54,809 bases of DNA from Catajapyx aquilonaris (GCA_000934665.2 KZ538671.1:1-54809); one strand, 5' to 3'. Numbered from the stretch's first letter, positions 13,372-54,809 are shown. Numbers and translations: made by a program. The notes: a model not told the origin generated them from the sequence alone.

Positions 13372-13439
13372 NNNNNNNNNNNNNNNNNNNNNNNNNNNNN
13401 NNNNNNNNNNNNNNNNNNNNNNNNNNNNNNNNNNNNNNN
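13372..13439. other. Assembly gap
   Basis: Run of N between poly-A and poly-C tracts. Confidence 1.
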
Positions 13440-34316: not shown

Positions 34317-34510
34317 GTCAGTAGTGGTCAACTTTTATTTGAAAATGATTTAATGTGTCAAGGCATGTTTAAATTATTATATAATCAGGTTCTTATCCAA
34401 GCAAAGTCAAAAGTTCTTGCATTTTCCCACGTCACTCTCCAATCACGTGTTTCAGCTCACTTTTTCATCCAATTAGTTCCAAGCGCATCACTAAAAGTTG
34501 ACACATTTTC

Positions 34511-34856
34511 TTAAAATTCTAAGCTTGTTTACTGTATATAAAAAAAGGGAAGCACACACTGTATCTTGAAGAGGCAGATATCCAGTTTTCCTCTTCTTCA
34601 TGATTTCGTATCATCGTCACAATTGACGAGGTCATTCTTGCATCATGTAAGTCTATAAAGAACCCTCGCAGGTAGGAATATACTCATTTCTCTGGTGGCG
34701 GAGAAGAATACCGTATAGTTTCTTACATTGACATACGAGGGTAAGTGAATAGATTGTCGGTAGGAATATCAGCTGCATAATATTATGCTAAGTACTGTCC
34801 GAGATTCAGTTTTTGCAGTGGCAGGACGCGAAGGGCATTATTGGTTTGGGGGGAAT
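34511..34856 (+). repeat. Duplication block B; paralogous to ~38928-39283
   Basis: Shared ctaagcttgtt...gggaagcacacactgtatc...ggcggagaagaataccgta...gaagggcattattgg. Confidence 0.85.
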
Positions 34857-35405: not shown

Positions 35406-35568
35406 ATGGCTGAAGAGAGCAACATGAGTTGGATGCAGCGCTTTCTTATCCAGATAGTGAAGCAAGGAGATGTTCCGCGACATGTAGCTATCATTATGGA
35501 CGGAAACAGAAGATACGCCAGGAGCAAAGGGCTGCCGGTCATTCATGGGCACAGGGAAGGGTAAATGA

Positions 35569-35638
<70 letters not shown>

Positions 35639-37145
35639 TCATAAGAAGATGTTGGAGGCCCAGGAATGGTGCAGAGAGATGGGAGTGTACGCCCTAACAG
35701 CCTATGCTTTCAGCATAGAGAACTTCAAGAGGACAAAGGAAGAGGTGGATGGACTGATGGCATTGTTCGAGGAAGCGTTTCAAGATATCGTGGACAATAT
35801 GTGAGTCGTGATGTCTGAGATAAACAATTGAAGGATTGGAAAGCAAAATAGATCTTGGAAATTGTTTCACACTGCTGGACATAATAATTTATAATCAACT
35901 AGCTCATAGATTCGCAATTAAAAGTAACTGTTCCAAAGAAACTGCTAGCCTATACATATTGAGCAGTTTAGTGCCACAAATCGCAAACCACTTAGGGCAA
36001 TTTAATAGGAACATTTTGTACTGAGAATAATATGATAATGGCAATGCACATGGCTTCAATCGTTCAATGTGAGCAATATTTTCAATTATTCCAGCGACAC
36101 TTGGATCAAGAGGGGTACTCAGATCCGCGTGATGGGTCGACTGGAACTATTTCCCCAAAAACTGCAAACCCTGGCTGGACAGATCATGGAGAAGACGGCT
36201 CATTGCACCAAGGACGTCTTTACTCTGGCGGCTCCCTATACACATGTGAGTTACACCATTACCCACTTTGTTATACAGCAAGTGCGTGGTGAAGCACATC
36301 CTGGCAGGTTTGCACCCAACCACACACGGATCACGTGCAAAATATCACGCTCTGCGAGTGCTGTATTCGCATAGGAAAATGTGGTTATGCATGGTCATCT
36401 CACCCACGGTCAAATGCACTCTGAAAATGGTCGATCAGAAAATATTGGTTCCTACGGGCTACCTGTCTGCATAGTATGTTACAAATTTTCTTTCTCATCT
36501 ATGCAGCCCGTGATGACATGACCTCCGCAATTCACCAGCTGATGGACGGAGTGGGCAACGGTCTGTCAGAGGGACTGATGGAGAAGTGTCTCCAGACCAG
36601 GGACCTTCCTCCTGTGGACATGCTCGTTAGGACATCAGGGGAAATGAGGTTCTCGGACTTCATGCTCTGGCAGGTCAGTCCCAAGTGCTGCTGCAGCTTT
36701 AGGTCACTATAGTTATGTAACTACTATTTTGCAGAGCTCCTACAGCTACATTTGCTTTGAGCAAGTAACATGGCCTGAATATGGATTCTGGAACTTCCTT
36801 GGAAGCATCTTGCTCTTTCAACGTCATGCACACCATTTGAAGGTATGGTACAGTATGTCCTCTTTCGGTTTAACCAATTTACGTTATCTCCTATAAGATT
36901 GCATCATTCAACCGAACTTCACATGGTTGCTAGTATTACAAAATAATAAGCTTATATTGAAATGTTATTCGATATCACTGAATATTGACACAATCCTGTT
37001 ACAGGATCGTCTGATGAAAGCTGGGCAAGAACTGCAGAGAGAACGATTAGAAGCGGACAAGGGAAGCAGGATTAGTAGTTTCTTGCATACTCTGGACAGA
37101 AATTACGCCCAGTATGTGACGAGCCTGTCCAGTAATTCGCCATAA
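35406..37145 (+). pseudogene. DHDDS: cis-prenyltransferase (DHDDS-like) copy 1, apparently frameshifted; exons 35406-35560, 35639-35800, 36095-36245, 36507-36673, 36735-36842, 37005-37145
   Basis: Motifs [25 protein letters not shown] and [19 protein letters not shown]. Exon 3 is 151 nt versus 149 nt in copy 3 (+2 frameshift), and exon 4 lacks 18 nt. Confidence 0.75.
35570..35635 (+). repeat. (ATT)n microsatellite filling most of intron 1 of cis-PT copy 1
   Basis: ~22 perfect ATT units between the GT donor at 35561 and the AG acceptor at 35638. Confidence 0.97.
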
Positions 37146-38411
37146 AATATTGCGGCCAATAGGGAATATCAGTTCATAGAGGGTGATGGAGTGTATGCGT
37201 TGGGACCCTACCTTTCTAATGAATGGAAAAGGATCATTAATATTTTGAAATGATTTCTTTTCGTCCTTCTTTCAGTCATTGGGATGCTGACGAATTACTT
37301 TAAAGTCTGTAGAAAGTTGGTTTGCTGGGAAGATGTGACCCTAAGTGAAGGACGTTATCATTTGGGATAATTTTAATAGTTTTTGGAATATTCAGGAAAA
37401 GTTGCATTCCTGACAAAATAATCCTTCAAAAACAAAGTCCCACAATGCAATGCTTGAATTTATAAGGAATTGTCTGTAAACGCTTTGGAGTGACGGATAT
37501 GTCAATAATCTCGAATTGGTAATTGATAATAATCTGATGAGCATGCAGGATGTTTTTCTCTCCCGTCCAAGAGGAAACCCCATTTTTCCCAGGCAACGAA
37601 AGCTTCGTGCAGGCCTTACGTAAGTATGAATCGCTCGCACCTCACCACAAACCACTAATTTTGTTGTCAGAACGTGTGTTGTGCCTGCAATTACCACGTA
37701 CCGTATGTAAAGATGAAATAACATTAATTTTGAACCATTGGCGTCTGCAAGAGAGGAGATGAGTTGAATTCAGGATCAATGGAAGGAATGGAGAAATTTC
37801 TTATCCGGTCTAAACATATCCATTTCTGATGCAGTGTCGTAAATAGTGAAATCAATTGTTCAGACACCGATCTTTAGTTGACTTACAATATTCTTTATAG
37901 AATTCTGCATTCCTTCACTAATTATTGCTCTCCGAGTGAGGCAGTCTTCACCTTTTCTTCATCATCTCAGTTTGCACCTCACTCATTCGTTTCAAAAAAA
38001 AAAAAGCCGGCTTCTCATAGCCTTGAGCATGGCCAATGTAACCCAATAAAAGTCGCAGTTACTACGTTCAGAGCAAGAATGGGATAATCAAGGCAATAAA
38101 CCTAAAAAAACTCAAGACTGAGAAGATAACAAAATCATGATTTTTGCATAATAATCAATGTCAACATGCAATTTACACTTCGAGTGAGAGGTAGCGCATT
38201 ACACAATCTCATTGCGTATCATGTGGCGTAATTAAATGTATACGTAGTGTTCAACGTCATTTTCAAATTCACATGACATAAAACAACCCTGGACCGAAGC
38301 CTCAGACGTAAGGGGCTGTAATGGTTAATTTATTTTCCCATCACGATCACGAATCACGTGCTTCTTGACTTGTTCTTTCAACAAAAGCAAGCGATAAGAC
38401 AATCAATAACA

Positions 38412-38563
38412 ATGGCTGGAGAAGGCAACATCATGACTCGGATGCAGCGCTTCATGATCCAGATAGTAAGGCCAGGAGATGTTCCGCGACATGTGGCGGT
38501 CATAATGGACGGAAATAGAAGATACGCCAAAAGCAAAGGGCTGCCGGTCATAGAGGGTCACAA
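38412..38563 (+). pseudogene. cis-prenyltransferase copy 2, exon-1-only fragment
   Basis: [51 protein letters not shown], then abrupt loss of similarity; no downstream cis-PT exons before 50705. Confidence 0.85.
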
Positions 38564-38752
38564 ACCTGAAGACGTAAGTGTCCTTTTTGCCATGCAGTTA
38601 GACCATAGAGTAAAAGGAACATGTGGAAGCCTGAAGAGAGAGCATTTTCATTGTCTTTGTATATTACTGCAGCTTATTATAGATTTCTTAAGCGAAGAGG
38701 ATTACAGGACTCCAGCAGCTCCAGAATATGGAATGATGAGGAGATGATGTAA

Positions 38753-38896
38753 GAGGAGGTGGAGGAAGAAGACATGCACAACGATTTCAGGGACATCGCA
38801 GAAAAGGATGATTCTTTGGCTTTGACTGGTCTGGAGAAAAACACCGTGGAGTACATAGCAGGCTATTGGCCAAGAAATGCCTGAAAAGATTTCCGA
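38753..38896 (+). mobile_element. Decayed P-element/THAP9-like transposase C-terminal fragment
   Basis: Translates (with one frameshift) as acidic tract + LTGLEKNTVEYIAGY(L)AKKCLKRFP. The YIAGY motif is typical of P-element transposase C-termini (recognised from memory). Confidence 0.5.
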
Positions 38897-39492
38897 CGTC
38901 ACTGTCCAAGTCCAAGTCGAGAAATTTTTAAAAATCCTAAGCTTGTTCACTGTATAAAAAAAGGGCGGGAAGCACACACTGTATCATGAAGAGGCAGAGA
39001 TAGAAATTTTTCCCTATTCATGAATTCGTGATGTCGTAATGCCAGAATTGACAAGGCCATTCTTGCTTCTATTTTAACGAATTATAATGAACCTTCGCAA
39101 GTAGGAATATACGCATTTCTCTAGTGGCGGAGAAGAATACCGTAAAGTTTCTTACATTGGTATATTTACGAAGGTAATTTAATAGATTGTCGGTAAGAAT
39201 ATCAGCTACATAATTTATGAGTACTCTCCGAGATTCAGTTTTGGAGTCGCAGAACACGAAGGGCATTATTGGGTTGGGGGAATGAATATGAAATCCGTTT
39301 GCCGCTATCTTTTGCGGTTGAGACCCTGATAGGCTACCTGTCCATAAACGGACAGCCAGACAGCCAGAGCCGTTCCTTAAGACTTTTTTTTTGATGATGA
39401 GGAAAAGTCTACAACTACATACTATAACGGTATCAAAAAAGTAATAAATTGAAGGATGATTGCCAATTGCTACCTTGCTTCGTTTATAAATG

Positions 39493-41181
39493 CGAAACAT
39501 GATACATCATTATTTTATCCCGGAGTTGAATACTCCCCTTCACTGCACCATTGCCGTTGAATAACTATTTTCACTCTTATTTTGCCACTAACACATGTAT
39601 ACTCTATTGTTAATGGAAAATAATTATGACACTCTGTGCTTAAGACTCTAGAGAATTTAATGACAGAGTGATGAACCAGCCTGAAACTACGATCTAACAT
39701 AAACCTGTCGTTTCGGATCAAGAACGATGTTACACGACTACGACCGTAATAAATTTAAATCACAGAATCAGAATTTCAGATCTTCAATAATTGTAATTAG
39801 GAAAATAGAGAAACACGGGAATCCCGTCCACGAGCTGTCCTGCTCCGAATAACATAATATTGAATGAAAACATCACGAGACCCCCTGACGTTTTTCATGA
39901 TCATGTCATGTTATCCTTGGGCGCAACAGGGTCACATAAGAATATGACGTAACATCTCTTTATCGAAGATTTTTTTGAACACAATATTATGGAACTTGTA
40001 TGACCGGATTAACCATGCAGGTGTATAATGCTGGCTCTTCAGAAGGAAAAGATTGATTCCATATGAAGGAACGAAGCGACGAAGACATATTGCCAGATTT
40101 GACAAGAGACGGGTAAGTCATACTGTCATGCATTATTTGACATTTTTTTTTTCAAAAAATCGACATGTTAAAAAGACAAGATTGGCAGTGGGGATCAAAT
40201 TGAATCAGTTGAGTGTGTGGGTTGTTTATGGGAATAGGCGATAAGGTGTTAAGAGGGGGATAAATAGGATATTTCTTTGTATGTAGTGAATTATTGAGGT
40301 TTTTTGTTATTAGAGCAAACAAGATTGGTAAGTTGGTCATTTTCATTATGCATGTTATAATATTTCAGGGATTAAAATTTTCATGACGCTGTCCTGAAAA
40401 GTGATTTGAAATGACATAGGTACTTTTATCGTTCAATAAGCAGGTTAGGTGATATTTGTATACCGGTTATCATTGACTTAATCAGGCCAAAATGTGTATC
40501 TAAGCGGTGGAATATTAAATTTCGAAAATGGCACACAACACCAAGAAGTCAAATAAAAACTATTAGGAAAAATGATGCTACTTCACTAACACACAATAAA
40601 CATAAGCTAAAAATGATGAGGAATAAAAAAATAATTCTTCGTTGGAAGCAAAAAAATTAATTAAATCTTAAATGCATTTTCATTAACTCCACAATCCAGA
40701 GCAAACAATTACACAAGAGTGGCTTAATGAAAAGTCTTCTATGAAGGACGCGCATGTTCATAGTCACTAAATCCAGCAGTTTGTCGATATGACGTCCTCA
40801 TGGTCGCAAGGACGTCCGAGGGGGAAAAATTCGCGAAAATATCTCGTAATCATTTGAATCATACGAAAGTAGTTTACAGCGTGGATGAATTATACGTCGT
40901 AGTATCCCAGGGCAATTAATTATTTAAAGTAGTTTGGCTCCAGATGACACTGGCTAGGCTGGGGTAGTCAGACCACTCTTGCATAACTATTTTTTTGTTA
41001 ATTGTTACATCAATGCATTAGTTCCTCGGATAATTAATTGGTTAATTAATATCTGGACACCTAGTGACAAGAGTGAGTCATTTCAGAGGCGAAAGTGTAA
41101 GGAAATTCCAGTTTCAGACTAAAATAAAATCATTTTTAGATCGTAGTATATTACGTTTAACGGAGGTTTATGCTCATAATG
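39493..41181 (+). repeat. Segmental duplication block A (copy 2)
   Basis: Collinear with 32603-34316. Confidence 0.9.
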
Positions 41182-41384
41182 TACAATGTAAGCGTGTGAA
41201 GAAGGAGGAGAGTCGGCCAAGCGGCATGTGCTGCAGGTCGACAAAGGCTAAATAAAGCAAAAAATAAACAGAAACAAACAAAACAACAGTGTCACAAATA
41301 AATATTACGCGTAACATCTCTTTATCGAAGATTTTTTTAACACAATAATATTATGGAACTTGTACGTCAGGATTAACCCTGCAG

Positions 41385-41908
41385 TGTTAATTTTATTTTC
41401 TTCTGCATTAATAAAATTATTTTACGTACTGGTAATCACGATACCCAACTGAATCTCGCAGACGTTGATGTGAGTCATTTAAAATAACATTGCCTGACGT
41501 TCTTACACCTTGAAAAACAGCGCCAGAAACACTGCATGGCAAAGCTACGTAATATATTACGTAGCTTTGCCATGTTCTGCAATAATTAATCATATATATG
41601 ATTAATTATTGCAGAATGAGTGTTATTACTTGGCGTAACTATATACTAACCACGAGTGAAGAAATGACGCTCACCAAGATTTTCTCACTGGCCATGTGTA
41701 TTTGCCAGGTCTATAAAAGAAAGGGTACGCGTATCTCATAACTCACTTCTTGTTGCTATAGGAGAAAACATCGCAGATTAACCTACAGGTGAAGTAAGCC
41801 GTATCATCTTATAACGAAATTAAGGGTTTCAAAGTCTGCAGTGCACAATTAACCAGAAATAGGGAAATTTACCAGCCATCATTTCCGCATTTTTCAAAGA
41901 TTTGACTT
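41385..41908 (+). promoter_or_regulatory. Orphan duplicate of the cis-PT promoter plus non-coding first exon (TATA ~41712, donor GTAAGC ~41794)
   Basis: Near-identical to 53200-53695, which lies directly upstream of cis-PT copy 4; related to 50155-50236 upstream of copy 3. Confidence 0.75.
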
Positions 41909-41929
41909 TTTCTATTATTAATATTATTA

Positions 41930-43772
41930 TTATTACACGCTTTATATCAGCTTCACTTTCTTGTCTGTGAGCGGATGTTTGTGTGTCCGTGTGTCCACCC
42001 CTCTCTTCGCCATTGCCCCGCCATCTATCGGTAGGGATTAACGTTAGGGGTGATTTCGCGCCTTCCTACACCATCTAGCGGTTGGTTTTCACATTAGGTA
42101 GTCACGTGATTGGCTGTGTTCGCTACCTCCCTACCATCTGGCGGTAGAAGTCACATGATGGGTGAATTTGCATCTTCCATACCTACTAGCGGTAGTAGTC
42201 ACGTCATTGGCTGTGTTCGCTACCTCCCTACCGTCTGGCGGTAGTAGTCACATGATGGGTGAATTTGCAACTTCCATACCTACTAGCGGTAGTAGTCACG
42301 TGATTGGCTGTGTTCGCTACCTCCCTACCGTCTGGCGGTAGTAGTCACATGATGAGTGAATTTGCAACTGCCATACCTACTAGCGGTAGTCGTCACGTCA
42401 GTTGGTCCCTTGCCCCACCATCTCAGGTACTTCCGTCACCTACTTCCCCCCTTTCCACCCCTTCTTCCTTTCCACCCCATTGGTGGGGTGGGTGGGGGGG
42501 GGGGTTCTCTCCCCACACCATCTAGCGGTTGGGGTTCACATTAGGGGTGACTATGCCACATCAACGCCAGATGGCGGCAGTAGTCACGTGAGGTTGTCAC
42601 ATCGCTACACATCTCCGTCGCTACTTCCTCCACATCATCGGGAGGTAGTCACGTGATTGGCTGTGTTCGCTACCTCCCTACCATCTGGCGGTAGTAGCCA
42701 CATGATGGGTGAATTTGCAACTTCCATACCTACTAGCGGTAGTAGTCACGTGAGTCGGTCTGTTAGCAATCTCCACACCAGTCACCGGAGTTACTGGCTC
42801 TCAGTATCCAGTTCGCTTCCTCCAAACTACAGGGCGGGAGTAAATACTCCAGACTGTTTTTTAGTGACAAAGTGAAAAGATTACAAATCACAGCCTGGCA
42901 CCATTCAACTAACTCCCCATGTACTATACATCAGTCATTCCTTCCACTTTATCACTAAAAACCAGTTAAAATAAAAATATATAAAAAACCTTTTTATTAC
43001 ACGCTTTATATTAGCTTCACGTTGTCTGTGAGTGTGTGTGTCCACCCCTCCGTTCGCCCTTGCCCCACCATCTATTGGTAGGTATTAACGTAAGGGGTGA
43101 TTTCGCGCCTTCCCACACCATCTAGCGGTTGGTATTCACATTAGGGGTGACTTTCCTACATCAACGCCAGATGGCGGCAGTAGTCACGTGAGGTTCGCAC
43201 ATCGCTGCACATCTCCGTCGCTACTTCCCCTACATCATAGTGAGGTAGTCACGTGATTGGCTGTGTTCGCAATCTTCATGCCATCTAGCGGCAGTAGTCA
43301 CGTGAATGGGTGGATTTGCAACTTCCACAATTAACGTTAGGTGTCACTTCGCAACCTCAACGTCATTTGGCGTAGTAGTCACTTTAGTTTATGAGGTCGC
43401 TTCGTCTTCCACCGCATTGTTTGGGTGTCATCCGCCACTTCCACACCATTATCTGAAGGCAGTTCGGGAGGCAGTCACGTGAATGGGTGAATTTGCAACT
43501 TCCATACCTACTAGCGGTAGTAGTCACGTGAGTCGGTATGTTAGCAATCTCCACGCCAGTCACCGGAGTTACTGGCTCTCAGTATCCAGTTCGCTTCCTC
43601 CAAACTACAGGGCGGGAGTAAATACTCCAGACTGTTTTTTTAGTGACAAAGTGAAAAGATTACAAATCACAGCCTGGCACCATTCACCTAACTCCCCATG
43701 TACTTTACATATGTCATTCCTTCCACTTTATCACTAAAAACAAGTTAAAATAAAAATATATAAAAACCCTTT
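41930..43772 (+). mobile_element. Two tandem non-autonomous elements (Helitron/Helentron-like) with an internal GC-rich minisatellite
   Basis: Both units (~41930-42990, ~42995-43772) start ttattacacgctttatat(c/t)agcttcac + GT-rich microsatellite, contain ccatct(a/g)gcggtagtagtcacgtg repeats and share a ~280 bp 3' end. The family assignment is inference. Confidence 0.55.
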
Positions 43773-44245
43773 TAAAGAACACGCTTTATATTTCCAAGTG
43801 CACTAAAAAGTAGAAAATAATTTTTCTTCCTCAATCTTCAGCTTTCTCTTTTACCTTGAACTGAACAGAAGATTCATGACTTTCTTTCCATGGAATTCAG
43901 CTACTGCAGTATTGTCTTGCTTTACTTATATTCTTATACGGCCTACATGACGAAAAATAAAGCGTGGGCACTAAAATTTTAATACTGTACATGGTTATAT
44001 TTCATGCCATGGAAGTAGATAATGTGTCATTTAGTGCCCACGCTTTATTTCTCGTCATGTAGGCCGTATAAGAATATAAGTAAAGCAAGACAATACTGCA
44101 GTAGCTGAATTCCATGGAAAGAAAGTCATGCATCTTCTGTTCAGTTCAAGGTAAAAGAGAAAGCTGAAGATTGAGGAAGAAATTATTTTCTACTTTTTAG
44201 TGACCTTGGAAATATAAAGCGTGTTCTTAAAAAGATTTTTATATA
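43757..44245. repeat. Long inverted repeat (~220 bp arms, ~54 bp spacer)
   Basis: 43757-43975 is the near-perfect reverse complement of 44030-44245. Confidence 0.92.
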
Positions 44246-45025
44246 TATATTTTTACACATACAGAGTCGGCCGAGCGGCATGTGCTGCAGGCCGACAAAG
44301 GCTAAATAAAGCAAAAAACAAACAAAAACAAACAAAACAACAGTGTCACAAATAAATATTACGCGTAACATCTCTTTATCGAAGATTTTTTTAACACAAG
44401 AATATTATGGAACTTGTACGTCAGGATTAACCGTGCAGGTGTATAATGCTGGCTCTTCAGAAGGAAAATATTGATTCCAGATGAAGGAACGAACGAAGCG
44501 ACGAAGACATATTGTCAGATTTGACAGAGACGGGTATATCATAGGCCGACTGTCATCCATTATTTGACTTTTTTTAAATTTACACATATGTTAAAAAGAC
44601 AAGATTGGCAGTGTGGATCAAATTGAATCAGTTGAGTGTGTGGATTGTTTATGAGAATAGGCGACAAGGTGTTAAGAGGGAGATAAAGAGAATATATTTC
44701 TTTGTATGTAGTGAATTATTGAGGTTTTTTTGTTATTAGAGCAAACAAGATTGTAAAATCACAGCATGAGCGTGAGTAGACGAGACATTTTCTCATTCTT
44801 TCAAGTAGACTTGTACGGATAGAGTGAACCCGAAAAACTGGAAGTGGGTTCCAGTGCTTATCTCAATTTTGACGTTTTTGTGGGTTGACCCAATATTGCA
44901 TAACACCGTCCATACAGCTTCAGTGTGCAGCGACTTGAATAACACATCGACTGCGGAGCACCAACAGAAACAACTACTCCCGAGTGTCTACTACTAATAT
45001 TCCCTTTCAGAAACTTATTAAAGAG

Positions 45026-46817
45026 ATGGGGTCTAAGAACCTAGACACAGACTCTTTTTTGGCGCTGACCTCTGAGGTCATTAAGAGCCTGACCATCTCC
45101 GAAAAGCACGACCAGGGCCTGAGAGACTTTGACAGTTGGTTCAAAAAGGTCAGGACTCTAATTAGATTGTGAGCAGGTCTCTTCACACGTATTTGTCATT
45201 GCAGATGTTGAACTACAACCTTCTCGGAGGGAAACTGAACCGAGGCACGATGGTGGCCAATTCATTTTCCGTCCTGGCAGAGAAGGAAGATGTCACAGAG
45301 GAGAACATCAGGTTGGCACACTTATTGGGCTGGTGCATCGAGCTGGTCAGTTTTAGTACAGTGCTCTTGCCTGAACCATTAAGCAGAATAAATTATAAAT
45401 TTCGGAACCAATAATTCCATACGTAATGTTGTTTCCACAGCTGCAGGCAGCCTTTGTGGTGGCGGACGACATAATGGACAATTCCGAGACCAGAAGGGGT
45501 CATCCCTGCTGGTACTTGACCAACGGACTGGGGCCAAAGGCCTTCAAGGACGCCTTGCTCATGGAAAGGGCCGCCTTCAATATCATGTGGAAGTACCACC
45601 GAGACCAGACCTACTACAACAAGTGCGTCGACCTATTTAACGAGGTAATGCTCCAGAAGCGTGTTTTTAATAGAGGGAAACATTTACTCTGGGAGACATC
45701 AGGTGGTGGTCATAAACTCGCTCAAAATCGGGCTACATAACCCTTCGTGCCTGCATTATAACTACTACCCCAGGCAGCAAAGTTAATCGTTGTTATTAAT
45801 AATAATTATTGGAAACTATTATGAAATACAGACTGAGATGCATAAGTTGTGGACATGCTTTTCTTTCAAAGATTATTTTCAAAACGAAGAAGGGTCGGTG
45901 CCTGGACCTCCTGACCTCATCCGGAAGCAAGCCCCAGCTCGACCTCTGCACCGAAGAGAGATACGCAACAATAGTCAAGTACAAAACTTCATATCACTCC
46001 TTTTATCTCCCTGTGGGACTAGCAATGATCATGGTGAGAAATCTACAATATTAATTACGATAATAATTACAATAATATGTAATACAATACAGGGGGCAAT
46101 AAAAAGGCCACTTTAGAAAAAAAGCAGCACAGTAAAAATTGTCCTCACTGGAAGTCTATGAAGGATCTCATAAATAATTCACAATTTTTTTCAATGTATT
46201 CTTTCGGTGCATCTGATAAATCATGATGTAGTGTACAGTACGTATATGTTGCCACGAACATTATTAATTCACAATTACTGTATTAGGCTGGAATGTTTGA
46301 CGAAAGAAGTCAGTCGGAGGTGGAGGGAGTCCTCTTGAAGGTTGGTCACCTTTTCCAAGTCCAGGACGACTACTTGGACTGCTTCGGTGACCCAGAGGTC
46401 ATGGGGAAGGTGGGGACGGACATCGAGGAGGGAAAGTGCTCCTGGCTGGTGGTCACTGCCCTCAAGCACGCGGATCACCATCAGAAGATGGTCCTGGAGG
46501 TACTGTTGTACATCAAGGGCGCCATGTTCTTTGTTTCTTCTGGTGGCTGCTTCATGATGAATTTCTCAGCGTTTTGTTCGTGTCCTGACCTCCATCGCAT
46601 GTCCCTCCCATTTCAGAAGAACTACGGATCAGAGGACCCCAAGCACGTGTCCCTAGTTAAGAACCTCTACAGGGACCTCGGTCTCCAAGAGATGTACAGG
46701 GAGTTCGAAAATGACTCCAAGAACTCGATCCTGAAGGATATCTCCAACATGAAGAATCCGAACATGCGGGACCTCTGCACAACCTTTCTGAACAAAATCC
46801 TCGACAGGAAGCGATAA
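45026..46817 (+). CDS. FPPS: FPPS-family trans-isoprenyl diphosphate synthase, ~347 aa; exons 45026-45148, 45205-45345, 45441-45644, 45872-46033, 46287-46499, 46617-46817
   Basis: GGKLNRG, GWCIELLQA, FARM DDIMD + RRGHPCWY, YKT, FQVQDDYLD (SARM), GTDIEEGKCSWL and basic C-terminus RKR. All introns are GT-AG phase 0 and there are no internal stops. Confidence 0.93.
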
Positions 46818-47138
46818 ACGTAGCTGGCAACTAAACAGAGAAGACAACATGCTATAGTTGGTGTGAGAATGTAGTATGTATATAGTGTTATGATGAAAAA
46901 TATACACACATGCTTGCAGCAGTAGCCAGTCAGTCATGGTCAAGATTGGATCACCAGAGGAAATAAAGAGAAAACAAATTCACTTGCTTTCAGACAGTAT
47001 CAGACACCATTTCCAAGTGTTGCGAATGTCTATCCTGCCTCTCAAGTCTCAACGTACAGTTACTGTGCAAGAGAAAAAAAATATTAATCATCAAAATGCC
47101 GAGTAGGCCCTATTATGTTCGCAGACCAAAGATCCAGA

Positions 47139-47414
47139 CGGGTAAGGATGATCTAAAAAAAACATTTCACGGGGATACTACATGATGAAGTGGACATTTT
47201 TCGATCCAGAATTAATTTTTGAAATGCCAACTTAGGATTATTGTATCATTGTTATTGAGTAACAATGAGAAGGGCTGACGCTTCATAAGTGGGATATCTG
47301 ATTGTTGCTCAATAACTATTGCTAAGTTGGCAGTTTTAAAATTAATTCTGGATCGAAAAATGTCCACTTCATCACACATCCCCGTGAAATGTTTTTTTAG
47401 ATCATCCTTACCCG
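47139..47414. mobile_element. MITE-like element with ~78 bp inverted arms
   Basis: cgggtaaggatgatctaaaaaaacatttcacgggga...tccagaattaatttt and its reverse complement at 47338-47414. Confidence 0.75.
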
Positions 47415-48296
47415 ACAATAAAAATTCTCAAAAAATCCCGAAGCCAACTCCTTTCTCAGAAGCACTTAAAATGCATAACATGTTGTGTAGGTGGCATATA
47501 ATGGGACTTCCGTGCTCCACATTTTGCGGAAATCTCTAGAAAACATTTCTGGTGCAATTTCGAGTGCCATTCAAAACAAAATATCCTATTAATGAGAAAT
47601 GTGAAAAATCGTAATTTTGGACGCCATTTTGGATCCAAATTTTTGGATTTTATTAAGATGAGAATATCCATCTTACAGAGTGCGAAAATACCTTTCCAAT
47701 GCACACATCAAATTTAGGATTTGTACTTATCCTATTGGAGGTATGGTAATCCAAGTGACTGCATGAGAAGCAAAAGTCCATTCACGGGTTGCGTTTCGGG
47801 TTCTAGCTCGTGAAAGACCAAATTCGTCCTCGGAGACTTTTCGGAAATAACGGCCCGCCATGTCCAGCTTCATTTTCGGGGTCATTAAAAAATCTCAAAA
47901 GGGTCCAAGTTTGAGAAAAATTAAAATCAAAATTTGAGCGCCAATTTTTGACTTTGAATTTTTGATTCTCATAATCGTCAGTATGGCCATCCCATAAACA
48001 TAAAGCGTTAAATTAGGTATCTAACCAAGTATCCAACGCACAGATCAAGTTTCGGGTTTGTACTTATCCTCGTGGAGTTATGGTAATCCAAGTGACTTCA
48101 TGCGAAGGAAAAATCCGTATAAATTGGTAGATTCGGCACCCTGTGGTTACGCAACCACGCAACGCAGAAGTATAAAATTGTGGCTTCCTGCATAGGTCGA
48201 TGAGTAGTAGGCTACTGTACATGTCACTAAAATTTGGTCAAGGTCCTCAAGGATTTATCGGAAAGGTGGCTCGCTTGACGTGGAATGCCTCATATA

Positions 48297-48595
48297 ATAA
48301 TTAATAATTTGATACCCCATTATCAGCCTACGGGCTTTCCTAGGGGGGGATTTCTCCCAATTTTTTGTCTGGAACTCTTCCATTTTTACTATTTTTCTCA
48401 TCACCGGAATGAAGCAGGGAAAGGGTAGGAAGGAGGCGGCTGTGGCCTATATTACGGTAACGACCCCGGAATTATCCTGCAAGGACCATGGGAAACCACA
48501 GAAAACCATGGTCAGGGTCGCCGGCCTCCGGGATTCGAACCCAGGACCTCCCGATTAGCAGTCGGACACCATACCACTACACCACTACTGCTTCG
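48297..48595 (-). mobile_element. Full-length tRNA-derived SINE with 17 bp target-site duplication
   Basis: On the minus strand: A-box TGGTGTAGTGG, B-box GGTTCGAATCC, anticodon-like arm (GCT) and AT-rich tail. It is flanked by the direct repeat gtggaatgcctcatata (48280-48296, 48596-48612). Confidence 0.9.
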
Positions 48596-49433
48596 GTGGA
48601 ATGCCTCATATATACACTATGTATATGTTTATTTACAAGATGAATAAAAAAAATGAATTTAACATAACCTAAAAGCATCAAATGACTCAACTGACATTGT
48701 CACATCCATCTGATCAAAGAAAAGAGAGTGTCCCACACCTTGCCCTATAAGCCAGCCCCCAGCCGGTTTTTATTTGTGTCCTTTCCATCTTGTGAACCTC
48801 AAAAATTTCATAATAACAATAATTAATTACATGTCAGTGAGATAACTTCAATAATATATTCTACGAGAGGCAGTTCTGCAAGTTTTTATCCCCATTGTAA
48901 ACAGGGTCATTTGTTTCGCCACATTAGGAACGTCAAGGGCTATTGATGCACAAAACCGTCGATAAAATCACGTAGTCTAATTTACCTGTCAATTGTCAGC
49001 TTTGATTGCTGGCTTTTTTGATGTTGCTATATTAACATGCAAATTACACAAATTGCAACAAAATGGAGACAGGTGTTTCCCAGCCCTCTGGAACGTCTCG
49101 CACGCGTCTATTGGCACGCACACTGATAAATTATGTGTATTTTAATTATTTCTCTCTTACACATCGTCCTTGAAAGGTGAGGCAAGGTCGTCAAGAGAAT
49201 AAGAGTACTGTACTTCAATAAGGATTATTTGACACCTTGCATGACTTCCTTTTGATTTCAAAGGAAAATTAGCTGCAACTTTTATTCGACATAGTCGGTA
49301 CGAAGGGAGTAATGCAACTTACAACGTGAATTTCACATCTTATTTAAATATTTTGAGGTGACGTTACCAATTTTGAAAATTTACACAAAATTCAATTAGC
49401 AAGTATACCCATACTCTTGATGCCAAAATGTTC

Positions 49434-49494
49434 ACGCCATGTTGAGGTCACCTTGCATGAGGACACCTCATGCAAGGTGACCTCAACATGGCGT
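49434..49494. repeat. Perfect hairpin (29 bp arms, 3 nt loop)
   Basis: acgccatgttgaggtcaccttgcatgagg-aca-cctcatgcaaggtgacctcaacatggcgt. Confidence 0.95.
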
Positions 49495-50154
49495 CTGGAT
49501 CGCGCAAGCTCTAAAATAATTATATTTAATCCTTCTCTCTCTCTCTCTCTCACTAATTATATGGCGCAATAAGGCACATAGTGCGTCATGCTAGGAGAAA
49601 ACCAGGGCTTCAATTAAAAGTAACTATAATAATTCATTAGAGGATTTTGCAACGGAGCAGGTCATGCTTCTCGTGTATCATGCATTGAAGTAATCTACAT
49701 GACGGAACACACAAAGGTGTCGAAATATTTACCAGGTAGATGTAACTAACCAATATGTTTTTCTGTTAGTTCTCACAATTTTTAGCGAAATTTAAGCCAT
49801 ATTCTTTCGTGTTACGACGGAAATCCGCAAATCGCTCCAGAATGCGACAGGGGAACCCTAGATAATATTTTTTTGTTGTTGAAATTGTTATGGCAATGGC
49901 AGGTGACGAATGTTATTTGAAATTGCTGATTCCCACAGAGGTTAACGTAAGTCATTCAAAATTGGCATGATTTTCTACAGTTTCCCACGTTTTACTGCCT
50001 TGCAAAAAAGACAGACGGACATGGCATGATGAGGTCATGAGAGATGTGATTTAATTGCAAAGAAAATGATGATAATTTCTTGACGTAACTAGAACAAATA
50101 TGCTGATCATATAACTCTTACGACTCATATCTCGCCGTAGTTATTTGCCAGTAC

Positions 50155-50236
50155 TATAAAAGAAATGGCATCGCAGCGTTCACTTCCTGTTGCTGGGAGG
50201 AAAACATCGCAGATCAACTTTCAAGAGGAGTAAGTG
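50155..50236 (+). promoter_or_regulatory. TATA box and non-coding first exon of cis-PT copy 3
   Basis: TATAAAAGAAATGG...TCACTT (Inr-like)...gaaaacatcgcagat...|GTAAGT, homologous to the leader upstream of copy 4. Confidence 0.65.
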
Positions 50237-50704
50237 TCATCCTGTAACAGCAGTAACGATTTCATAATACTTAACAAGTAATATGGAAAGTTACAAGACA
50301 TTATTTTCACATTTGATATTACATGGACGTTTCCCAGCTGCCAAAAAAGAGTATTGATGTGAAAAATTAATGAAAGTTATTTAGGACTAGAAATCTCAAT
50401 ATTTAAAACTTATTCAGATTTGAGTCAACTAGTTGAGGATTAATAAGATCATTATTTTCTAGTAGTATTTATTGTGAATAATCGGAATAATCAAAAACCC
50501 AAATATTAGGATGAAAAGCAATAAAATATATTAACTCCAAAATTAAACGAAGAAAGTTACCTATACTCGAACATATTTTCGTTCGTATCATTTCATTTAC
50601 AAGGTTCTCACATTACTGGAATATGCTCCAGTAAGTTCATATCATTGAAACATCTTTAATATTGGAATCTTTGGTCAAAGGTGTCGTTGTCCAGCCAACT
50701 AACA

Positions 50705-52241
50705 ATGGCCGAAGAAAATAACCTGACTTGGATGCAGAGCTTTTTCGCTTCAATAGTGAAGCAAGGGGACGTTCCTCAACATATGGCCATCATCATGGAC
50801 GGGAACAGAAGATACGCAAGAGAAAGAAAATTGCCTCTCATTGAGGGACATAAAAATGGGTGAGAGATTATAAACAAGCACATTCCTGCCAAATGAAGTC
50901 GATCTTGGTGAGAGTTGATTCTTTCTCTATAGCCGATAGAAGTCATAGTGATTGAACTGCAATAATATAGTTATTGTGGTTTTTCTAGGGATATTCACAC
51001 AGGCGTTAATCCTAAATATGGAACACTTCTCTTTGTTGCAGCTATAAGAAGATGCTGGAGGTTCAGGAGTGGTCTAGAGCAATGGGAATCTACGCCTTAA
51101 CAGCATATGCTTTCAGCATAGAAAACTTCAAGAGGACTGATGAAGAAGTAAATGGGCTGATGGATTTGTTTGAGGAAGCGTTTCAAGACATCCTGGATGA
51201 TATGTGAGTCTCAACATGTTTTGTTGTCTGATTAATTTGTGTTATTTCCTATTTCCCGCCCAAGCTCCATAAATCTACCCACATATCCTCTGGTAGTCAT
51301 TCATTTTCCACGTCCTACATGCCACAAGATAATAACAAACGGCTCGTTTCAGCGATACGTGGATCAATCGAGACACTCAAATACGTGTGATTGGTCGACT
51401 GGAACTCTTTCCGAAAAGGCTGCAAATCCAGGCTGGACAGATCATGGAGAAACTGTCAGGCTGCAAAAAGCACGTCTTCACTCTGGCATGTCCTTACACG
51501 TGTGAGTATTCCATGACATACAAGAGTAAGGATTGGGCATCAACAAGTAACATTCATTTTCGTCCAGCCCGTGACGACATGACCTCCGCAATTCATCAGC
51601 TGATGGACGGAGTGGACGAAGGTCTGATCGAACCAGAGGACGTGTCAGAGGGACTGATGGAGAAGTGTCTCCAGACCAGGGACCTTCCTCCTGTGGACAT
51701 GCTCGTTAGGACATCAGGGGAAATGAGGTTCTCGGACTTCATGCTCTGGCAGGTCAGTCTCCATTTGCACTTTTCCTTCATTATTTGGTATGTAACAGTC
51801 ATTATCTAATTATAAATATTTTTCTGATTCAGAGTTCGTACAGTTATATCTGCTTCGAGAAAGTAACATGGCCACAGTATGGATTCTGGAATTTCCTGGG
51901 AGGCATCTTACTCTTCCAACGACATTCGTATTTCTTGAAGGTAGGATAACTATGCAGAGTATAGCTAGATTAATTGGTATAAATTAACGTGAAACCATCA
52001 GGTGGTTATCCGGATATACACGAAGACTATGATTCAAAAAGAATATTTGAATACATTTTTTTTTTACCGCCCGACAATTTTGCAGACAACTGATACTTTT
52101 TTTTTGCAGGATAAATTGAAAAGGCCGCAGGTCGAGCTGGAGCAAGAAAAATCTGACCCGGAGAAAGGAACACGAATAATTAATTTTCTGGGGAAGCTTG
52201 ACAAGAATCACATCGAGTATGTAGCGCACTTGTCACAATAA
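50705..52241 (+). CDS. DHDDS: cis-prenyltransferase (DHDDS-like) copy 3, intact, ~296 aa; exons 50705-50859, 51042-51203, 51353-51501, 51568-51752, 51833-51940, 52110-52241
   Basis: All five cis-PT conserved regions are present: [46 protein letters not shown]. The C-terminal helix is DHDDS-type ([10 protein letters not shown]) with no RxG tail, and the 891 nt spliced ORF is in frame. Confidence 0.93.
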
Positions 52242-53498
52242 TGTCGAAAAGAAATTAATGTGATTTCGCATGATAACTCCCTACACTGTTAGGATAAAGA
52301 TCACTTCTAAATTATTTTTAAATGACAGCTTGTTCTTCATTACAGTAACAAAATATTTGTCATACACTATTCGGTTTCTCTGTAGACCTCAATTGATATA
52401 ATTAGTTAAATCGGATTATTTTCATCATACGGTAGGAATCTGCTGCAGGTAGGCCTACACATGTCGTCTTAGGGCATTTCAAAATGGTGCAGTGAAAAAG
52501 CTAAGTAGACCTTCTGGGTCCATCCATTGCTTCCTATAAATAAGTGCTGATGTAACAGAAAAATAATAATTAGCAGTTCATCACTCACGCTATATAAGTG
52601 TTAGTTACATGATTCATGTTGGTGAATTCACATGCCGATCGCAATACCTTCATTGACGAGTTTTAGGAAATCTTGAATCGTACACTGTAATTCAAGTTTA
52701 TAACTATTTACTTACACTTACAACAAGACATATTATGTAATAAATAATATTAAAATGCATTTTTGTTATTGACTCTGATCGTCCAACTACCCTGAAGACC
52801 ATTTAACATCGCCTGATTCAGGTGAGTTAAATCCGGTTAAATCCTTGCTGAAAGCAGATAATGGTCTTGACGCACCTTTACTTAAGTTAATAGCGAAACA
52901 CTGATAATGGTTCAGCTTGTGCTACTTTTACGACATGCACATATTCTTTTTAAGCATATACCATAATATATCTTTCCTTTCTCACGAGTAATTAGTAATC
53001 ATTAGTATATACTCAATTTTTAGGTACAATTTTAGCTTCATGACTGTAAGGAAAAAAGAGGACCTGGAATGCAGCAAGTATTGATGGACATGGTCTTGGG
53101 ACATTTTATGGACGGTTTACCACGAGGTAGTGCAGCATTAGGGCAATCATTAGGGGCAGTGGATTGCCGACCATGCAGAAGCACATCAGTGGAAGGTAAG
53201 TGTTAATTATATTTTCTTCTGAATTAAGAAAATTATTTCACGTAATGGTAATCACGATAGATACCCAACTGAATCTCGCAGAAGTTGATGTGAGTCATTT
53301 AATATTGAGGCAACATTTCACATTGCCTGACGTTCTTACGCCTTGAAATACAGCGCGAGGAACACTACATGGCGAGGCTACGTAACATGATTAATTATTT
53401 CAGAATGAATGTTATTACTTGGCGTAACTGTACTAACCACGAGTGAAAAAATGACGCTGGCCAAGATTTTCTCACTGGCCATATGAATTTGCCAGGTC

Positions 53499-53586
53499 TA
53501 TAAAAGAAATGGTACGCGTATCTTACAACTCACTTCTTGTTTCTATAGGAGAAAACATCGCAGATTAACCTACAGGTGAAGTAAGC
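53499..53586 (+). promoter_or_regulatory. TATA box and non-coding first exon of cis-PT copy 4
   Basis: TATAAAAGAAATGG, TCACTT Inr-like ~30 nt downstream, donor GTAAGC at 53581; acceptor just upstream of the ATG at 54004. Confidence 0.7.
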
Positions 53587-54003
53587 CGTATCATCTTATA
53601 ACGACATTAAGGGTTTCAAAGTCTGCAGTGCACAATTAACCAGAAATTGGGAAATTTACCAGCCATCATTTCCGCACTTTTTAAAGATTTGACATTTTTT
53701 TTGCACGTACAGGTTTCACAGCTGCCAAAAACGTATTGATGTGTAATAGTAATTAATGCTAGTTATTTAGAATCAGAAATTGTACTGAAAATGATGCAGC
53801 GTTAAGTTAATCCGTTGAGGATTGTTGAAAACAGTTAAAAAAATTGTGAATCGTCTGAGTGTTATGAATAAAGGTTCAAATGGATTTCAGTCCGTCATGC
53901 AGTATAGCACAATACACATGTAGTGGATATGCAAGTGTTTCATTATTAACTTAATAGTATATAACTTTTTGTTTGTGATCATGACACTCAGAGTACACCA
54001 ACA

Positions 54004-54809
54004 ATGGCCGAAGAAAATAACCTAACGTGGATGCAGCGCTTCTTCGTGTCTATAGTGAAGCAAGGGGACGTTCCTCAACATATGGCGGTCATCATGGATG
54101 GAAACAGAAGATACGCAAGAGAGAAAAATTTGCCTCTCATTGAGGGACATAAAGAGGGGTGAGTCGTTTATAACTTATAAACTGGCCCCATTTACTCCTG
54201 CAAAATCGCTTTACGGGATGTTTAATCAGATTACTGACTGCTTCAAATCATGAAGTGATTGAACAGCAACGATAGTTATTGTGGTTTTCTTGCTCAGGCA
54301 TTCACACTAGATGTGAATCCTAATCGTTATGAAATCTTTTTTTCTTGTAGCTACAAGAAAATGCTGGAGGTTCAGGAGTGGTCTAGGGCAATGGGAATCT
54401 ATGCGACAACTGCGTATGCTTTCAGCATAGAGAACTTCAAGAGGTCAAAGGAAGAGGTCGATGGGCTGATGACTTTGTTCGAGAAAGCGTTTCAAGACAT
54501 CCTGGATGACATGTGAGTCTCAACACGTATCACGTATCAAAATTTGTATTATTTACCCATTACCTCTGCAAAGTCAATAAATATGTCCACTTACTCTATG
54601 GTATAGTAATTGACTTTCCATATTGTACGTATATACCACAAGATAAAATAACTTCAAAATTTCAGCGATACGTGGATCAATCGAGACACTCAAATACGTG
54701 TGATTGGCCGCTTGGAACTCTTTCCGAAAAGGCTGCAAATCCAGGCTGGACAGATCATGGAGAAACTGTCAGGCTGCAAAAAGCACGTCTTCACTCTGGC
54801 ATGTCCTTA
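54004..54809 (+). CDS. DHDDS: cis-prenyltransferase (DHDDS-like) copy 4, 5' part (exons 54004-54158, 54351-54512, 54666->54809), truncated by window end
   Basis: [38 protein letters not shown]...[18 protein letters not shown]; exon 1 and 2 lengths (155, 162 nt) match copy 3. Confidence 0.9.

What the first reader, a model, noticed from the sequence alone, without database searches (positions are those of the whole stretch)
35406..54809. Candidate animal isoprenoid biosynthetic cluster: tandem cis-prenyltransferases around a divergent trans-prenyltransferase
Seen: four same-strand DHDDS-like copies with a complete FPPS-like gene embedded among them. Established: trans-IDS enzymes make the allylic primer (GPP/FPP/GGPP) that cis-PTs extend, the two folds are unrelated, and animals normally carry a single housekeeping DHDDS for dolichol. 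Clustering of cis-PTs with other terpenoid genes is known from plants (tomato CPT/TPS cluster). Inference: adjacency of consecutive, non-homologous pathway enzymes, both divergent, with TATA-type leaders, suggests a specialised pathway making a Z/E-mixed terpenoid or polyprenoid (pheromone, defence secretion or cuticular lipid). I cannot confirm novelty without a search.
Basis: partly seen in the sequence, partly recalled or inferred. Interest (0 to 1): 0.9.

Follow-up and report, generated by a model that had tools for sequence, protein, structure and literature searches.

The report
Tandem cis-prenyltransferase genes flanking FPPS-like gene
An invertebrate (probably hexapod) genome carries an old, selectively maintained tandem array of dolichol-type cis-prenyltransferase genes wrapped around an intact farnesyl-diphosphate-synthase-like gene with an altered chain-length pocket, which may mark a specialised isoprenoid pathway but is not yet shown to be one.

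Summary
On the + strand of 35.4-54.8 kb lie three multi-exon DHDDS-type cis-prenyltransferase genes. cPT3 is intact. cPT4 looks intact but is cut by the window end. cPT1 needs a weak shifted splice donor and lacks 6 residues. A fourth copy, cPT2, is an exon-1-only relic. Between them sits one complete six-exon FPPS-family gene (FPPSL, 347 aa).

The cPT paralogues are old (dS about 1.2 between cPT1 and cPT3, 0.33 between cPT3 and cPT4). They are under purifying selection (omega about 0.13) and exchange sequence by gene conversion. They keep all catalytic motifs and the long-chain DHDDS architecture, and they have no RXG tail of their own.

FPPSL keeps FARM, SARM and the basic IPP-binding residues, so it looks like a synthase, not a terpene synthase. 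It carries Ala where avian FPPS has F112 (the F112A mutant makes GGPP), plus GQ->GR and Y218->H.

I could not test co-expression, synteny or whether canonical copies exist elsewhere: no genome is held and no RNA run was listed. No shared upstream words were found, and only 1 of 5 leaders has a strict TATA box. No tailoring-enzyme genes were found. A specialised pathway is plausible but unproven.

The parts
35406..37145 (+). cPT1: DHDDS-type cis-prenyltransferase gene, 6 exons (35406-35560, 35639-35800, 36095-36249 or -36245, 36507-36673, 36735-36842, 37005-37145). Doubtful: it needs a weak shifted donor in intron 3 and lacks 6 residues in exon 4.
   Evidence: The conserved donor gives a frameshift. 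The 6-aa gap removes D180, which is conserved in 94% of 54 library representatives.
38412..38573 (+). cPT2: exon-1-only relic of a cPT gene (open frame of 54 codons, followed by GTAAGT); closest to cPT1.
   Evidence: Exon-1 dS to cPT1 is 0.49; no other exon was found at E up to 50.
45026..46817 (+). FPPSL: FPPS-family trans-isoprenyl diphosphate synthase gene, 6 exons (45026-45148, 45205-45345, 45441-45644, 45872-46033, 46287-46499, 46617-46817), 347 aa.
50705..52241 (+). cPT3: intact DHDDS-type cis-prenyltransferase gene, 6 exons (50705-50859, 51042-51203, 51353-51501, 51568-51752, 51833-51940, 52110-52241), 296 aa.
54004..54809 (+). cPT4: DHDDS-type gene, exons 1-3 seen (54004-54158, 54351-54512, 54666-54809), cut by the window end; 92% aa identity to cPT3 over 153 aa.
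36507..36680 (+). Gene-conversion tract shared with cPT3 (51568-51759): exon 4 dS is 0.06 against 1.2 in exons 1-3, including 117 nt that are 100% identical.
   Evidence: (family D15).
39083..44730 (.). Repeat-rich spacer between cPT2 and FPPSL: dispersed repeats shared with 33.1-34.7 kb, a 97-nt tandem array at 42098-42405, and an inverted repeat at 43823-44182. No Pfam-matching ORF.

Best explanation
This is a genuine, old, lineage-specific tandem array of DHDDS-type cis-prenyltransferase catalytic-subunit genes. It forms two sub-lineages, cPT1/cPT2 and cPT3/cPT4, with one member of the first decayed to a relic and the other decaying. The array surrounds one intact FPPS-family trans-isoprenyl diphosphate synthase. 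Most likely mechanism (inferred): FPPSL condenses IPP with allylic diphosphates. Because it has Ala at the avian-F112 position, it probably releases a longer primer (GGPP as well as, or instead of, FPP). The cPT proteins have no RXG tail of their own, so they would pair with the species' NUS1/NgBR-type subunit and extend such a primer by cis additions into a long polyprenyl diphosphate (dolichol-like or a lineage-specific polyprenoid). Shown: gene structures, family membership, conserved catalytic residues, purifying selection, gene conversion and the unusual substitutions. Inferred: enzyme activity, product length, partner dependence, that these are specialised paralogues and not the only copies, and that adjacency reflects functional coupling.
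For: Family and integrity: Pfam matches, human DHDDS and FPPS as solved relatives, clean GT-AG models. Long retention: cPT1 vs cPT3 exons 1-3 give dS 1.2 and omega 0.13; exon 5 gives pS 0.80 against pN 0.08; cPT3 vs cPT4 give dS 0.33 and omega 0.14. Catalysis: cPT3 keeps 32 of the 35 columns that are at least 85% conserved in 54 library representatives, including the RTSGE.R.S.F.LWQ block, plus the DGNRR block. The span from E87 to G120 is 33 residues, as in 38 of 54 representatives. No RXG at the C-terminus. Signs of specialisation in the cPTs: changes shared by cPT1 and cPT3 at conserved columns, namely K98A (39 of 54 representatives have K), L148F (44 have L, 1 has F) and N149T (49 have N, 4 have T). 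cPT3 is 44% identical to a vertebrate DHDDS proxy (P0020 matches human DHDDS at E 1.6e-155) and ranks 33rd of 56 in similarity to it, while other representatives reach 50-63%. Its best library match is 45.6%. FPPSL: FARM, SARM, IBM-1, IBM-3 and IBM-5 match the published IDS patterns (patterns from PMC10108439 section 7). Ala aligns with avian F112 (offsets of chains 1ubx/1ubv). GgFPS(F112A) mainly makes GGPP (PMC7003354, passages read), and the F95M/F96S change turns a bug FPPS into a GGPPS (PMC6140472, passages read).
Against: No expression data (one search listed no RNA run) and no genome, so these could be the only DHDDS and FPPS genes of the organism. No upstream 8-10-mers are shared by 3 or more of the 5 genes. 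No phosphatase, reductase, P450 or terpene synthase was found among 101 ORFs scanned in the window. In the tree the cPT pair's stem (0.93) plus tips (0.11-0.29) is about 1.0-1.2, above the median end branch of 0.8 but not flagged as long. Its placement is unresolved, so accelerated evolution is not demonstrated. The published IBM-2 pattern allows Ala at the -5 position, so Ala there occurs in some reviewed IDS enzymes (PMC10108439, Table 1). One of the four cPT copies is a relic and one is damaged, which also fits a decaying redundant array. Adjacency of two pathway genes can arise by chance.
Confidence: 0.5

Rival explanations
1. Ordinary housekeeping genes. The array is the organism's normal DHDDS locus after neutral tandem duplication (with decay already visible), and the neighbouring gene is its normal FPPS. 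The adjacency is coincidental and there is no specialised pathway.
For: All catalytic motifs are canonical. The cPTs have the long-chain architecture. One copy is a relic and one is damaged. No upstream words are shared by 3 or more of the 5 genes, and no tailoring genes were found. The protein lengths of 296 and 347 aa fall within the range of the library and PDB relatives.
Against: Two paralogue lineages have been kept under purifying selection past synonymous saturation. A housekeeping FPPS carrying the F112A-like state would be expected to divert FPP to GGPP (PMC7003354 and PMC6140472, passages read). Several substitutions sit at conserved columns in both gene types. cPT3 is less similar to vertebrate DHDDS than 32 of 55 other sequences compared.
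Confidence: 0.3
2. A tomato-like cisoid terpene cluster. The cPTs have become short-chain Z-prenyl diphosphate synthases, and FPPSL is an IDS-derived terpene synthase, or a dedicated partner, that converts their product into a volatile or defensive terpenoid.
For: FPPSL fails 3 of the 6 published IPP-binding motif patterns: IBM-2 (L114V), IBM-4 (A216S, Y218H) and IBM-6. It also has a non-aromatic residue at -5 and GQ->GR. Characterised lepidopteran IDS-type terpene synthases keep IBM-1 but change IBM-4 (PMC10108439, section 8 read). The cPTs have a bulkier Phe at a column where 44 of 54 representatives have Leu.
Against: FPPSL keeps K71, R74, E107, Q110, R126, R127, T215, S219, F253, Q254, D257, K271 and a basic C-terminus. 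It also keeps the IDS-type Cys after the FARM, where terpene synthases have Lys (PMC6140472, passages read), and Phe at -4. The cPT span from E87 to G120 has the full length seen in most DHDDS representatives. Shortening of this region in short- and medium-chain enzymes is recalled knowledge, not tested here.
Confidence: 0.12
3. Assembly artefact: the copies are collapsed or mis-joined haplotypes or mis-assembled repeats, not true paralogues.
For: A 68-base N run lies at 13372-13439. The cPT2-to-FPPSL spacer is rich in repeats. A 117-nt tract is identical between cPT1 and cPT3.
Against: The copies differ by dS 0.33 to more than 1, with different intron lengths and different flanks. That is far beyond allelic divergence. 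There is no N run inside 35-54.8 kb.
Confidence: 0.03

Closest known systems
Human DHDDS, catalytic subunit of the DHDDS-NgBR (NUS1) cis-prenyltransferase complex (PDB 6W2L, 6Z1N)
   Same: It is the best solved relative of the cPT exons (E 1.2e-18 for a 157-aa piece). It has the same DGNRR, AFS.EN..R and RTSGE.R.S.F.LWQ blocks and the same helix-3 span, and it also lacks an RXG tail.
   Different: Only 44% identity to a vertebrate proxy. Changes shared by cPT1 and cPT3 at conserved columns (K98A, L148F, N149T). The genes are present as a tandem array; that vertebrates carry a single DHDDS gene is recalled, not tested.
DHPPS-like cis-IDS expansion in the mealybug Planococcus citri (PMC10960109)
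   Same: An insect with one canonical DHDDS homologue plus three distant DHPPS-like paralogues of unknown function, alongside an expanded FPPS-like family (sections 9-10 read).
   Different: The sections read do not mention physical linkage of the cis and trans genes. The FPPS-like genes there have a degenerate SARM (NDxxD), whereas FPPSL has a canonical DDYLD. Relatedness to the present cPTs could not be tested, because no sequences from that paper were usable.
Avian FPPS F112A and stink-bug FPPS F95M/F96S chain-length mutants
   Same: FPPSL naturally has Ala at the position aligned with avian F112. These mutants shift the product from FPP to GGPP (PMC7003354 and PMC6140472, passages read).
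   Different: FPPSL is a natural gene, it keeps Phe at -4, and it has further changes (GQ->GR, Y218H, L114V). Its product is unknown.
IDS-derived terpene synthases of insects (Hemiptera, Coleoptera, Lepidoptera; PMC10108439, PMC6140472)
   Same: They arose from duplicated FPPS/GGPPS genes, have a non-aromatic residue upstream of the FARM, and carry substitutions in IBM-4.
   Different: Those enzymes keep only about 10% of the direct IPP-contact residues (PMC10108439, section 8). FPPSL keeps nearly all of them, including K71, R74, R126 and R127.
Tomato chromosome-8 CPT/TPS cluster (recalled, not read here)
   Same: cis-prenyltransferase genes physically clustered with other terpenoid genes.
   Different: The plant CPTs are short-chain, homomeric and plastidial, and they sit beside terpene synthases and P450s. 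Here the cPTs are of the long-chain DHDDS type, the neighbour is an IDS, and no tailoring genes were found.

Membership tests
cis-prenyltransferase, eukaryotic DHDDS type (PF01255) | Significant match to the family profile | tested here: met
   9 of 9 cPT exon pieces match PF01255; best is E 5.9e-22 (78.7 bits, cut-off 27) for cPT3 exons 3-4.
cis-prenyltransferase, eukaryotic DHDDS type (PF01255) | Catalytic blocks: Asp in DGNRR, AFS.EN..R, and RTSGE.R.S.F.LWQ | tested here: met
   all present in cPT1, cPT3 and (first two blocks) cPT4. cPT3 keeps 32 of the 35 columns that are at least 85% conserved.
cis-prenyltransferase, eukaryotic DHDDS type (PF01255) | Long-chain architecture (full-length helix-3 span) | tested here: met
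   33 residues from E87 to G120, as in 38 of 54 representatives. The link between this span and chain length is recalled knowledge.
cis-prenyltransferase, eukaryotic DHDDS type (PF01255) | Heteromeric type: no C-terminal RXG of its own, so it depends on NUS1/NgBR | tested here: inconclusive
   The C-termini of cPT1 and cPT3 have no RXG. Presence of a NUS1 gene and binding to it could not be tested (no genome).
cis-prenyltransferase, eukaryotic DHDDS type (PF01255) | Orthology to the single housekeeping DHDDS | tested here: inconclusive
FPPS-type trans-isoprenyl diphosphate synthase (PF00348) | Profile match with FARM DDxxD and SARM DDxxD | tested here: met
   DDIMD at residue 97 and FQVQDDYLD at residue 233.
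FPPS-type trans-isoprenyl diphosphate synthase (PF00348) | IPP-binding motifs IBM-1 to IBM-6 (PMC10108439, Table 1) | tested here: inconclusive
   IBM-1, -3 and -5 match. IBM-2 (final L->V), IBM-4 (KTSYHSF) and the true C-terminal IBM-6 (ILDRKR) do not. Of two fungal-type FPPS controls, one passes 8 of 8 patterns and the other 7 of 8 (it misses IBM-2).
FPPS-type trans-isoprenyl diphosphate synthase (PF00348) | Aromatic pair at -5/-4 before the FARM (C15 product) | tested here: not met
   Ala-Phe where human and avian FPPS have Phe-Phe. The two fungal-type hits have Tyr-Phe.
FPPS-type trans-isoprenyl diphosphate synthase (PF00348) | Conserved GQxxD block | tested here: not met
   GRCLD where avian FPPS has GQMLD and beetle IDS1 has GQSLD. 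The fungal hits have GQ.
IDS-derived insect terpene synthase | Loss of basic IPP-diphosphate-binding residues (IBM-1, IBM-3); Lys in place of Cys after the FARM; non-aromatic residues at both -4 and -5 | tested here: not met
   GKLNRG and SETRRG are retained, Cys is retained in RRGHPCWY, and only -5 is non-aromatic.
Metabolic gene cluster (co-localised, co-regulated, non-homologous pathway genes) | Physical adjacency of non-homologous enzymes of one pathway | tested here: met
   two enzyme classes lie within 19.4 kb on the same strand.
Metabolic gene cluster (co-localised, co-regulated, non-homologous pathway genes) | Co-expression, or shared regulation | not testable with these tools
   No RNA run was listed. 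No upstream 8-10-mers are shared by 3 or more of the 5 genes, which is weak evidence either way.
Metabolic gene cluster (co-localised, co-regulated, non-homologous pathway genes) | Further pathway or tailoring genes; conserved synteny | tested here: not met
   of 101 ORFs scanned, only BTB, KH/Tudor, CBM_14 and MFS domains were found. Synteny is untestable: the metagenome scan found 7 loci, none of them close.

The most novel reading that the evidence does not exclude
This would be a true animal isoprenoid biosynthetic gene cluster. A neofunctionalised FPPS paralogue supplies an unusual (C20 or other) primer, or acts on the cPT product. Dedicated DHDDS paralogues then turn it into a lineage-specific polyprenoid or terpenoid (cuticular lipid, defence compound or signal). 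The genes would be kept together by selection for co-inheritance or co-regulation. If the host is a springtail-like hexapod, this could bear on the unexplained higher terpenes of the springtail cuticle (PMC11321324, passages read). The taxon is unresolved.
Probability: 0.2. Interest if true: 0.85.

Novelty: new variant of a known kind. Interest (0 to 1): 0.5.

Why it matters
Clusters of non-homologous pathway genes are common in microbes and plants but rare in animals. The enzymology of arthropod terpenoids beyond IDS-derived terpene synthases is largely unknown. A maintained array of DHDDS paralogues linked to an FPPS paralogue with a natural 'GGPP-type' pocket offers a concrete candidate locus. 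It could be expressed and assayed for new animal polyprenoid chemistry and for how housekeeping dolichol enzymes are recruited. If the genes turn out to be the only copies, the locus is merely a duplicated housekeeping gene next to another.

Tried and rejected
Whole-genome search for other DHDDS/FPPS copies: no genome is held.

RNA evidence: no RNA holder was listed for 44900-54809.

Word-indexed protein searches with exon pieces found almost nothing: 1 hit among 82 candidates and 2 hits among 24 candidates. This is a limit of searching with pieces, not a sign of novelty.

Earlier findings of this scan: none by place, sequence or words.

Rfam and tRNA scans of the window: nothing.

The bacterial-type promoter/terminator scan is irrelevant to a eukaryote and was ignored.

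Atlas look-up of the BTB neighbour gave only mixed phylum-level leads, Nematoda and Arthropoda.

The metagenome scan with cPT3 exon 4 returned 7 loci. The best has 40% identity over 247 aa, and none shows the cPT-FPPS arrangement in a relative. L006 looks microbial.

Literature searches for an animal cis-PT plus trans-IDS cluster found no such report. This covers only the open-access library searched.

Structure prediction and complex prediction were not attempted. Spliced proteins are not accepted by those tools, and single exons would not answer the question.

Full report
**What is there**

The window is eukaryotic, with short spliced genes. Pfam matches confirm the two families. All 9 cPT exon pieces hit PF01255, and 3 of 4 FPPS pieces hit PF00348. 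A tblastn of the exon translations against the whole window finds cPT exons only at four places and FPPS exons only at one, all on the + strand. A lenient re-scan adds nothing.

I built gene models from three-frame read-outs and checked them by coordinates.
- cPT3 (50705-52241) has six exons, all introns are GT-AG, and it encodes 296 aa.
- FPPSL (45026-46817) has six exons, all GT-AG, and encodes 347 aa.
- cPT4 (from 54004) shows exons 1-3 and is then cut by the window end.
- cPT1 (35406-37145) has all six exons. With the conserved GTGAGT donor of intron 3 its frame breaks and stops follow. Only a weak donor (GTTACA) 4 nt downstream restores the frame, adding two residues. cPT1 also lacks six residues in exon 4, including an Asp conserved in 94% of 54 relatives.
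- cPT2 (38412-38573) is an open exon 1 with a good donor but no further exons.

The spacer between cPT2 and FPPSL is full of dispersed, tandem and inverted repeats. It has no Pfam-matching ORF.

**History of the copies**

Amino-acid identity is 92% for cPT3/cPT4 (153 aa) and 73% for cPT1/cPT3. Nei-Gojobori estimates are as follows.
- cPT3/cPT4: dS 0.33, omega 0.14.
- cPT1/cPT3, exons 1-3: dS 1.2, omega 0.13.
- cPT1/cPT3, exon 5: synonymous sites are saturated (pS 0.80) with pN only 0.08.
- cPT1/cPT2, exon 1: dS 0.49.

So there are two old sub-lineages, each duplicated again later, and their coding sequence has been under purifying selection for most of that time. Exon 4 is the exception. cPT1 and cPT3 differ there by dS 0.06 and share 117 identical bases that run 7 nt into the intron. 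That is a recent gene-conversion tract. Between cPT3 and cPT4, exon 3 is also far more alike (98%) than exons 1 and 2 (90% and 87%). These divergences rule out allelic or assembly duplicates.

**The cis-prenyltransferases**

The best solved relative is human DHDDS. A full HMMER scan of 1.84 billion representatives with cPT3 exons 3-4 found 3017 relatives, none at E below 1e-30. I aligned cPT1 and cPT3 with 54 representatives chosen for near-full length (270-400 aa) from the 150 listed plus P0001.
- cPT3 keeps 32 of the 35 columns that are at least 85% conserved, including every residue of the RTSGE.R.S.F.LWQ block. It also keeps the DGNRR and GH..G blocks.
- The span from E87 to G120 is 33 residues, as in 38 of 54 representatives. 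That this span is shorter in short- and medium-chain enzymes is recalled knowledge.
- The C-termini carry no RXG. Like DHDDS, the proteins should therefore need a NUS1/NgBR partner (established for the family; not tested here).

Against a purely canonical reading:
- Both sub-lineages share K98A, L148F (1 of 54 representatives has F) and N149T (4 of 54 have T).
- The best library identity is 45.6%.
- cPT3 is 44% identical to P0020, a vertebrate DHDDS. Other representatives reach 50-63% to P0020, and cPT3 ranks 33rd of 56.
- In a quick LG+G4 tree the cPT pair has a stem of 0.93, but its position is unresolved.

'Divergent' is therefore fair in a moderate sense, but paralogy to a canonical gene is not shown.

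**The FPPS-like gene**

Solved FPPSs of plants, birds, humans and a beetle are the best relatives. I tested FPPSL with the published motif patterns for isoprenyl diphosphate synthases (PMC10108439, sections 7-8 read).
- It matches FARM, SARM, IBM-1, IBM-3 and IBM-5.
- It misses IBM-2 (final Leu to Val), IBM-4 (Ala216 to Ser, Tyr218 to His) and the C-terminal IBM-6, which is still basic. Residue numbers come from the chain offsets.
- It keeps the Cys after the FARM that marks synthases as opposed to IDS-derived terpene synthases (PMC6140472, passages read).

I therefore read it as a working synthase.

Three features are unusual.
- Ala aligns with avian F112; Phe is kept at 113.
- GQxxD is GRxxD.
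- Tyr218 is His.

The avian F112A mutant mainly makes GGPP (PMC7003354, passages). The paired substitution in a stink-bug FPPS has the same effect (PMC6140472). A longer product is thus the best prediction, although the published IBM-2 pattern shows that Ala occurs at this position in some reviewed enzymes. Identity to two fungal-type FPPSs is 38% and 41%, whereas those two share 50% with each other.

**Context**

Other genes in the window are a BTB/SPOP-like gene, a KH-Tudor gene, a Gln/Pro-rich repetitive ORF, a chitin-binding CBM_14 exon and an MFS transporter exon. None is isoprenoid-related.

The best named relatives of the BTB protein are from cockroaches (45% and 42%), springtails (44% and 42%) and other insects. 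The host is probably a hexapod that is not closely represented there. Short introns (56-294 bp) point to a compact genome.

No 8-10-mer is shared upstream by three or more of the five genes, and only one gene has a strict TATA box.

**Interpretation**

The most likely reading (about 0.5) is a lineage-specific set of specialised isoprenoid paralogues. FPPSL would supply an allylic primer, probably longer than C15. The DHDDS-type enzymes, with NUS1, would extend it to a long polyprenyl diphosphate.

The main rival (about 0.3) is a duplicated housekeeping DHDDS that happens to lie beside the housekeeping FPPS. A tomato-like cisoid terpene cluster (about 0.12) is not excluded but lacks support from the cPT architecture.

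DHDDS-like expansions are already published for a mealybug (PMC10960109). Four literature searches found no report of an animal cis-PT array linked to a trans-IDS. These cover open-access text only.

**Limits**

No genome, no RNA, no named relatives and no synteny were available. Supplements of the cited papers were not opened. The alignments in the SI of PMC6140472 and PMC10108439, and Table S4 of PMC10960109, may bear on how unusual the FPPSL and cPT residues are.

Noticed in passing
window 36507-36680 and 51568-51759; also 51347-51496 vs 54660-54809: Patchy identity between paralogues. Exon 4 of cPT1 and cPT3 is nearly identical (117 nt at 100%), and exon 3 of cPT3 and cPT4 is 98% identical, while neighbouring exons are 72-90%. 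This indicates ongoing gene conversion within the array.
   Followed up: yes
window 4274-5464 (+): Single-exon BTB/SPOP-like (MATH-BTB type) gene of about 367 aa. Best named relatives are cockroach and springtail proteins at 42-45% identity.
   Followed up: partly
window 8005-8979 (-): Exons with two KH domains and a Tudor domain (TDRKH-like gene).
   Followed up: no
window 15058-17118 (+): A 687-codon open frame, extremely rich in Gln/Pro/Arg, with 18-, 27- and 30-nt tandem repeats and no Pfam match. A CBM_14 chitin-binding exon lies nearby at 18652-18960 (-). It may be a cuticle or matrix protein.
   Followed up: no
window 21511-21804 (-): An exon matching the Major Facilitator Superfamily (E 1.7e-15); a transporter gene upstream of the array.
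   Followed up: no
window 13372-13439: A run of 68 N (assembly gap), outside the finding.
   Followed up: no
window 33116-34735, 39083-41094, 44263-44730; 41644-41911 vs 53431-53698: Dispersed repeat families (78-97% identical) lie upstream of cPT1, downstream of cPT2, upstream of FPPSL and upstream of cPT4. They are probably mobile-element remnants that may have mediated the rearrangements; no Pfam domain was found in them.
   Followed up: partly
window 42098-42405 and 43823-44182: A 97-nt tandem repeat (3.2 copies, 95% matches) and a near-perfect inverted repeat (153-nt arms, 99% complementary, 54 nt apart) in the spacer before FPPSL.
   Followed up: no
window 44996-45025: A good splice-acceptor-like site (polypyrimidine tract plus CAG) lies 15 nt before the FPPSL start codon, and the frame is open upstream without an ATG. 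FPPSL may have a 5' UTR intron or an unseen upstream exon.
   Followed up: no
L006:1546-3150: A 5.3-kb metagenome contig carries an intronless polyprenyl synthase (27% identical to FPPSL, - strand) head-to-head with an intronless cis-prenyltransferase (32% identical to cPT3). It is probably microbial and unrelated by descent.
   Followed up: partly
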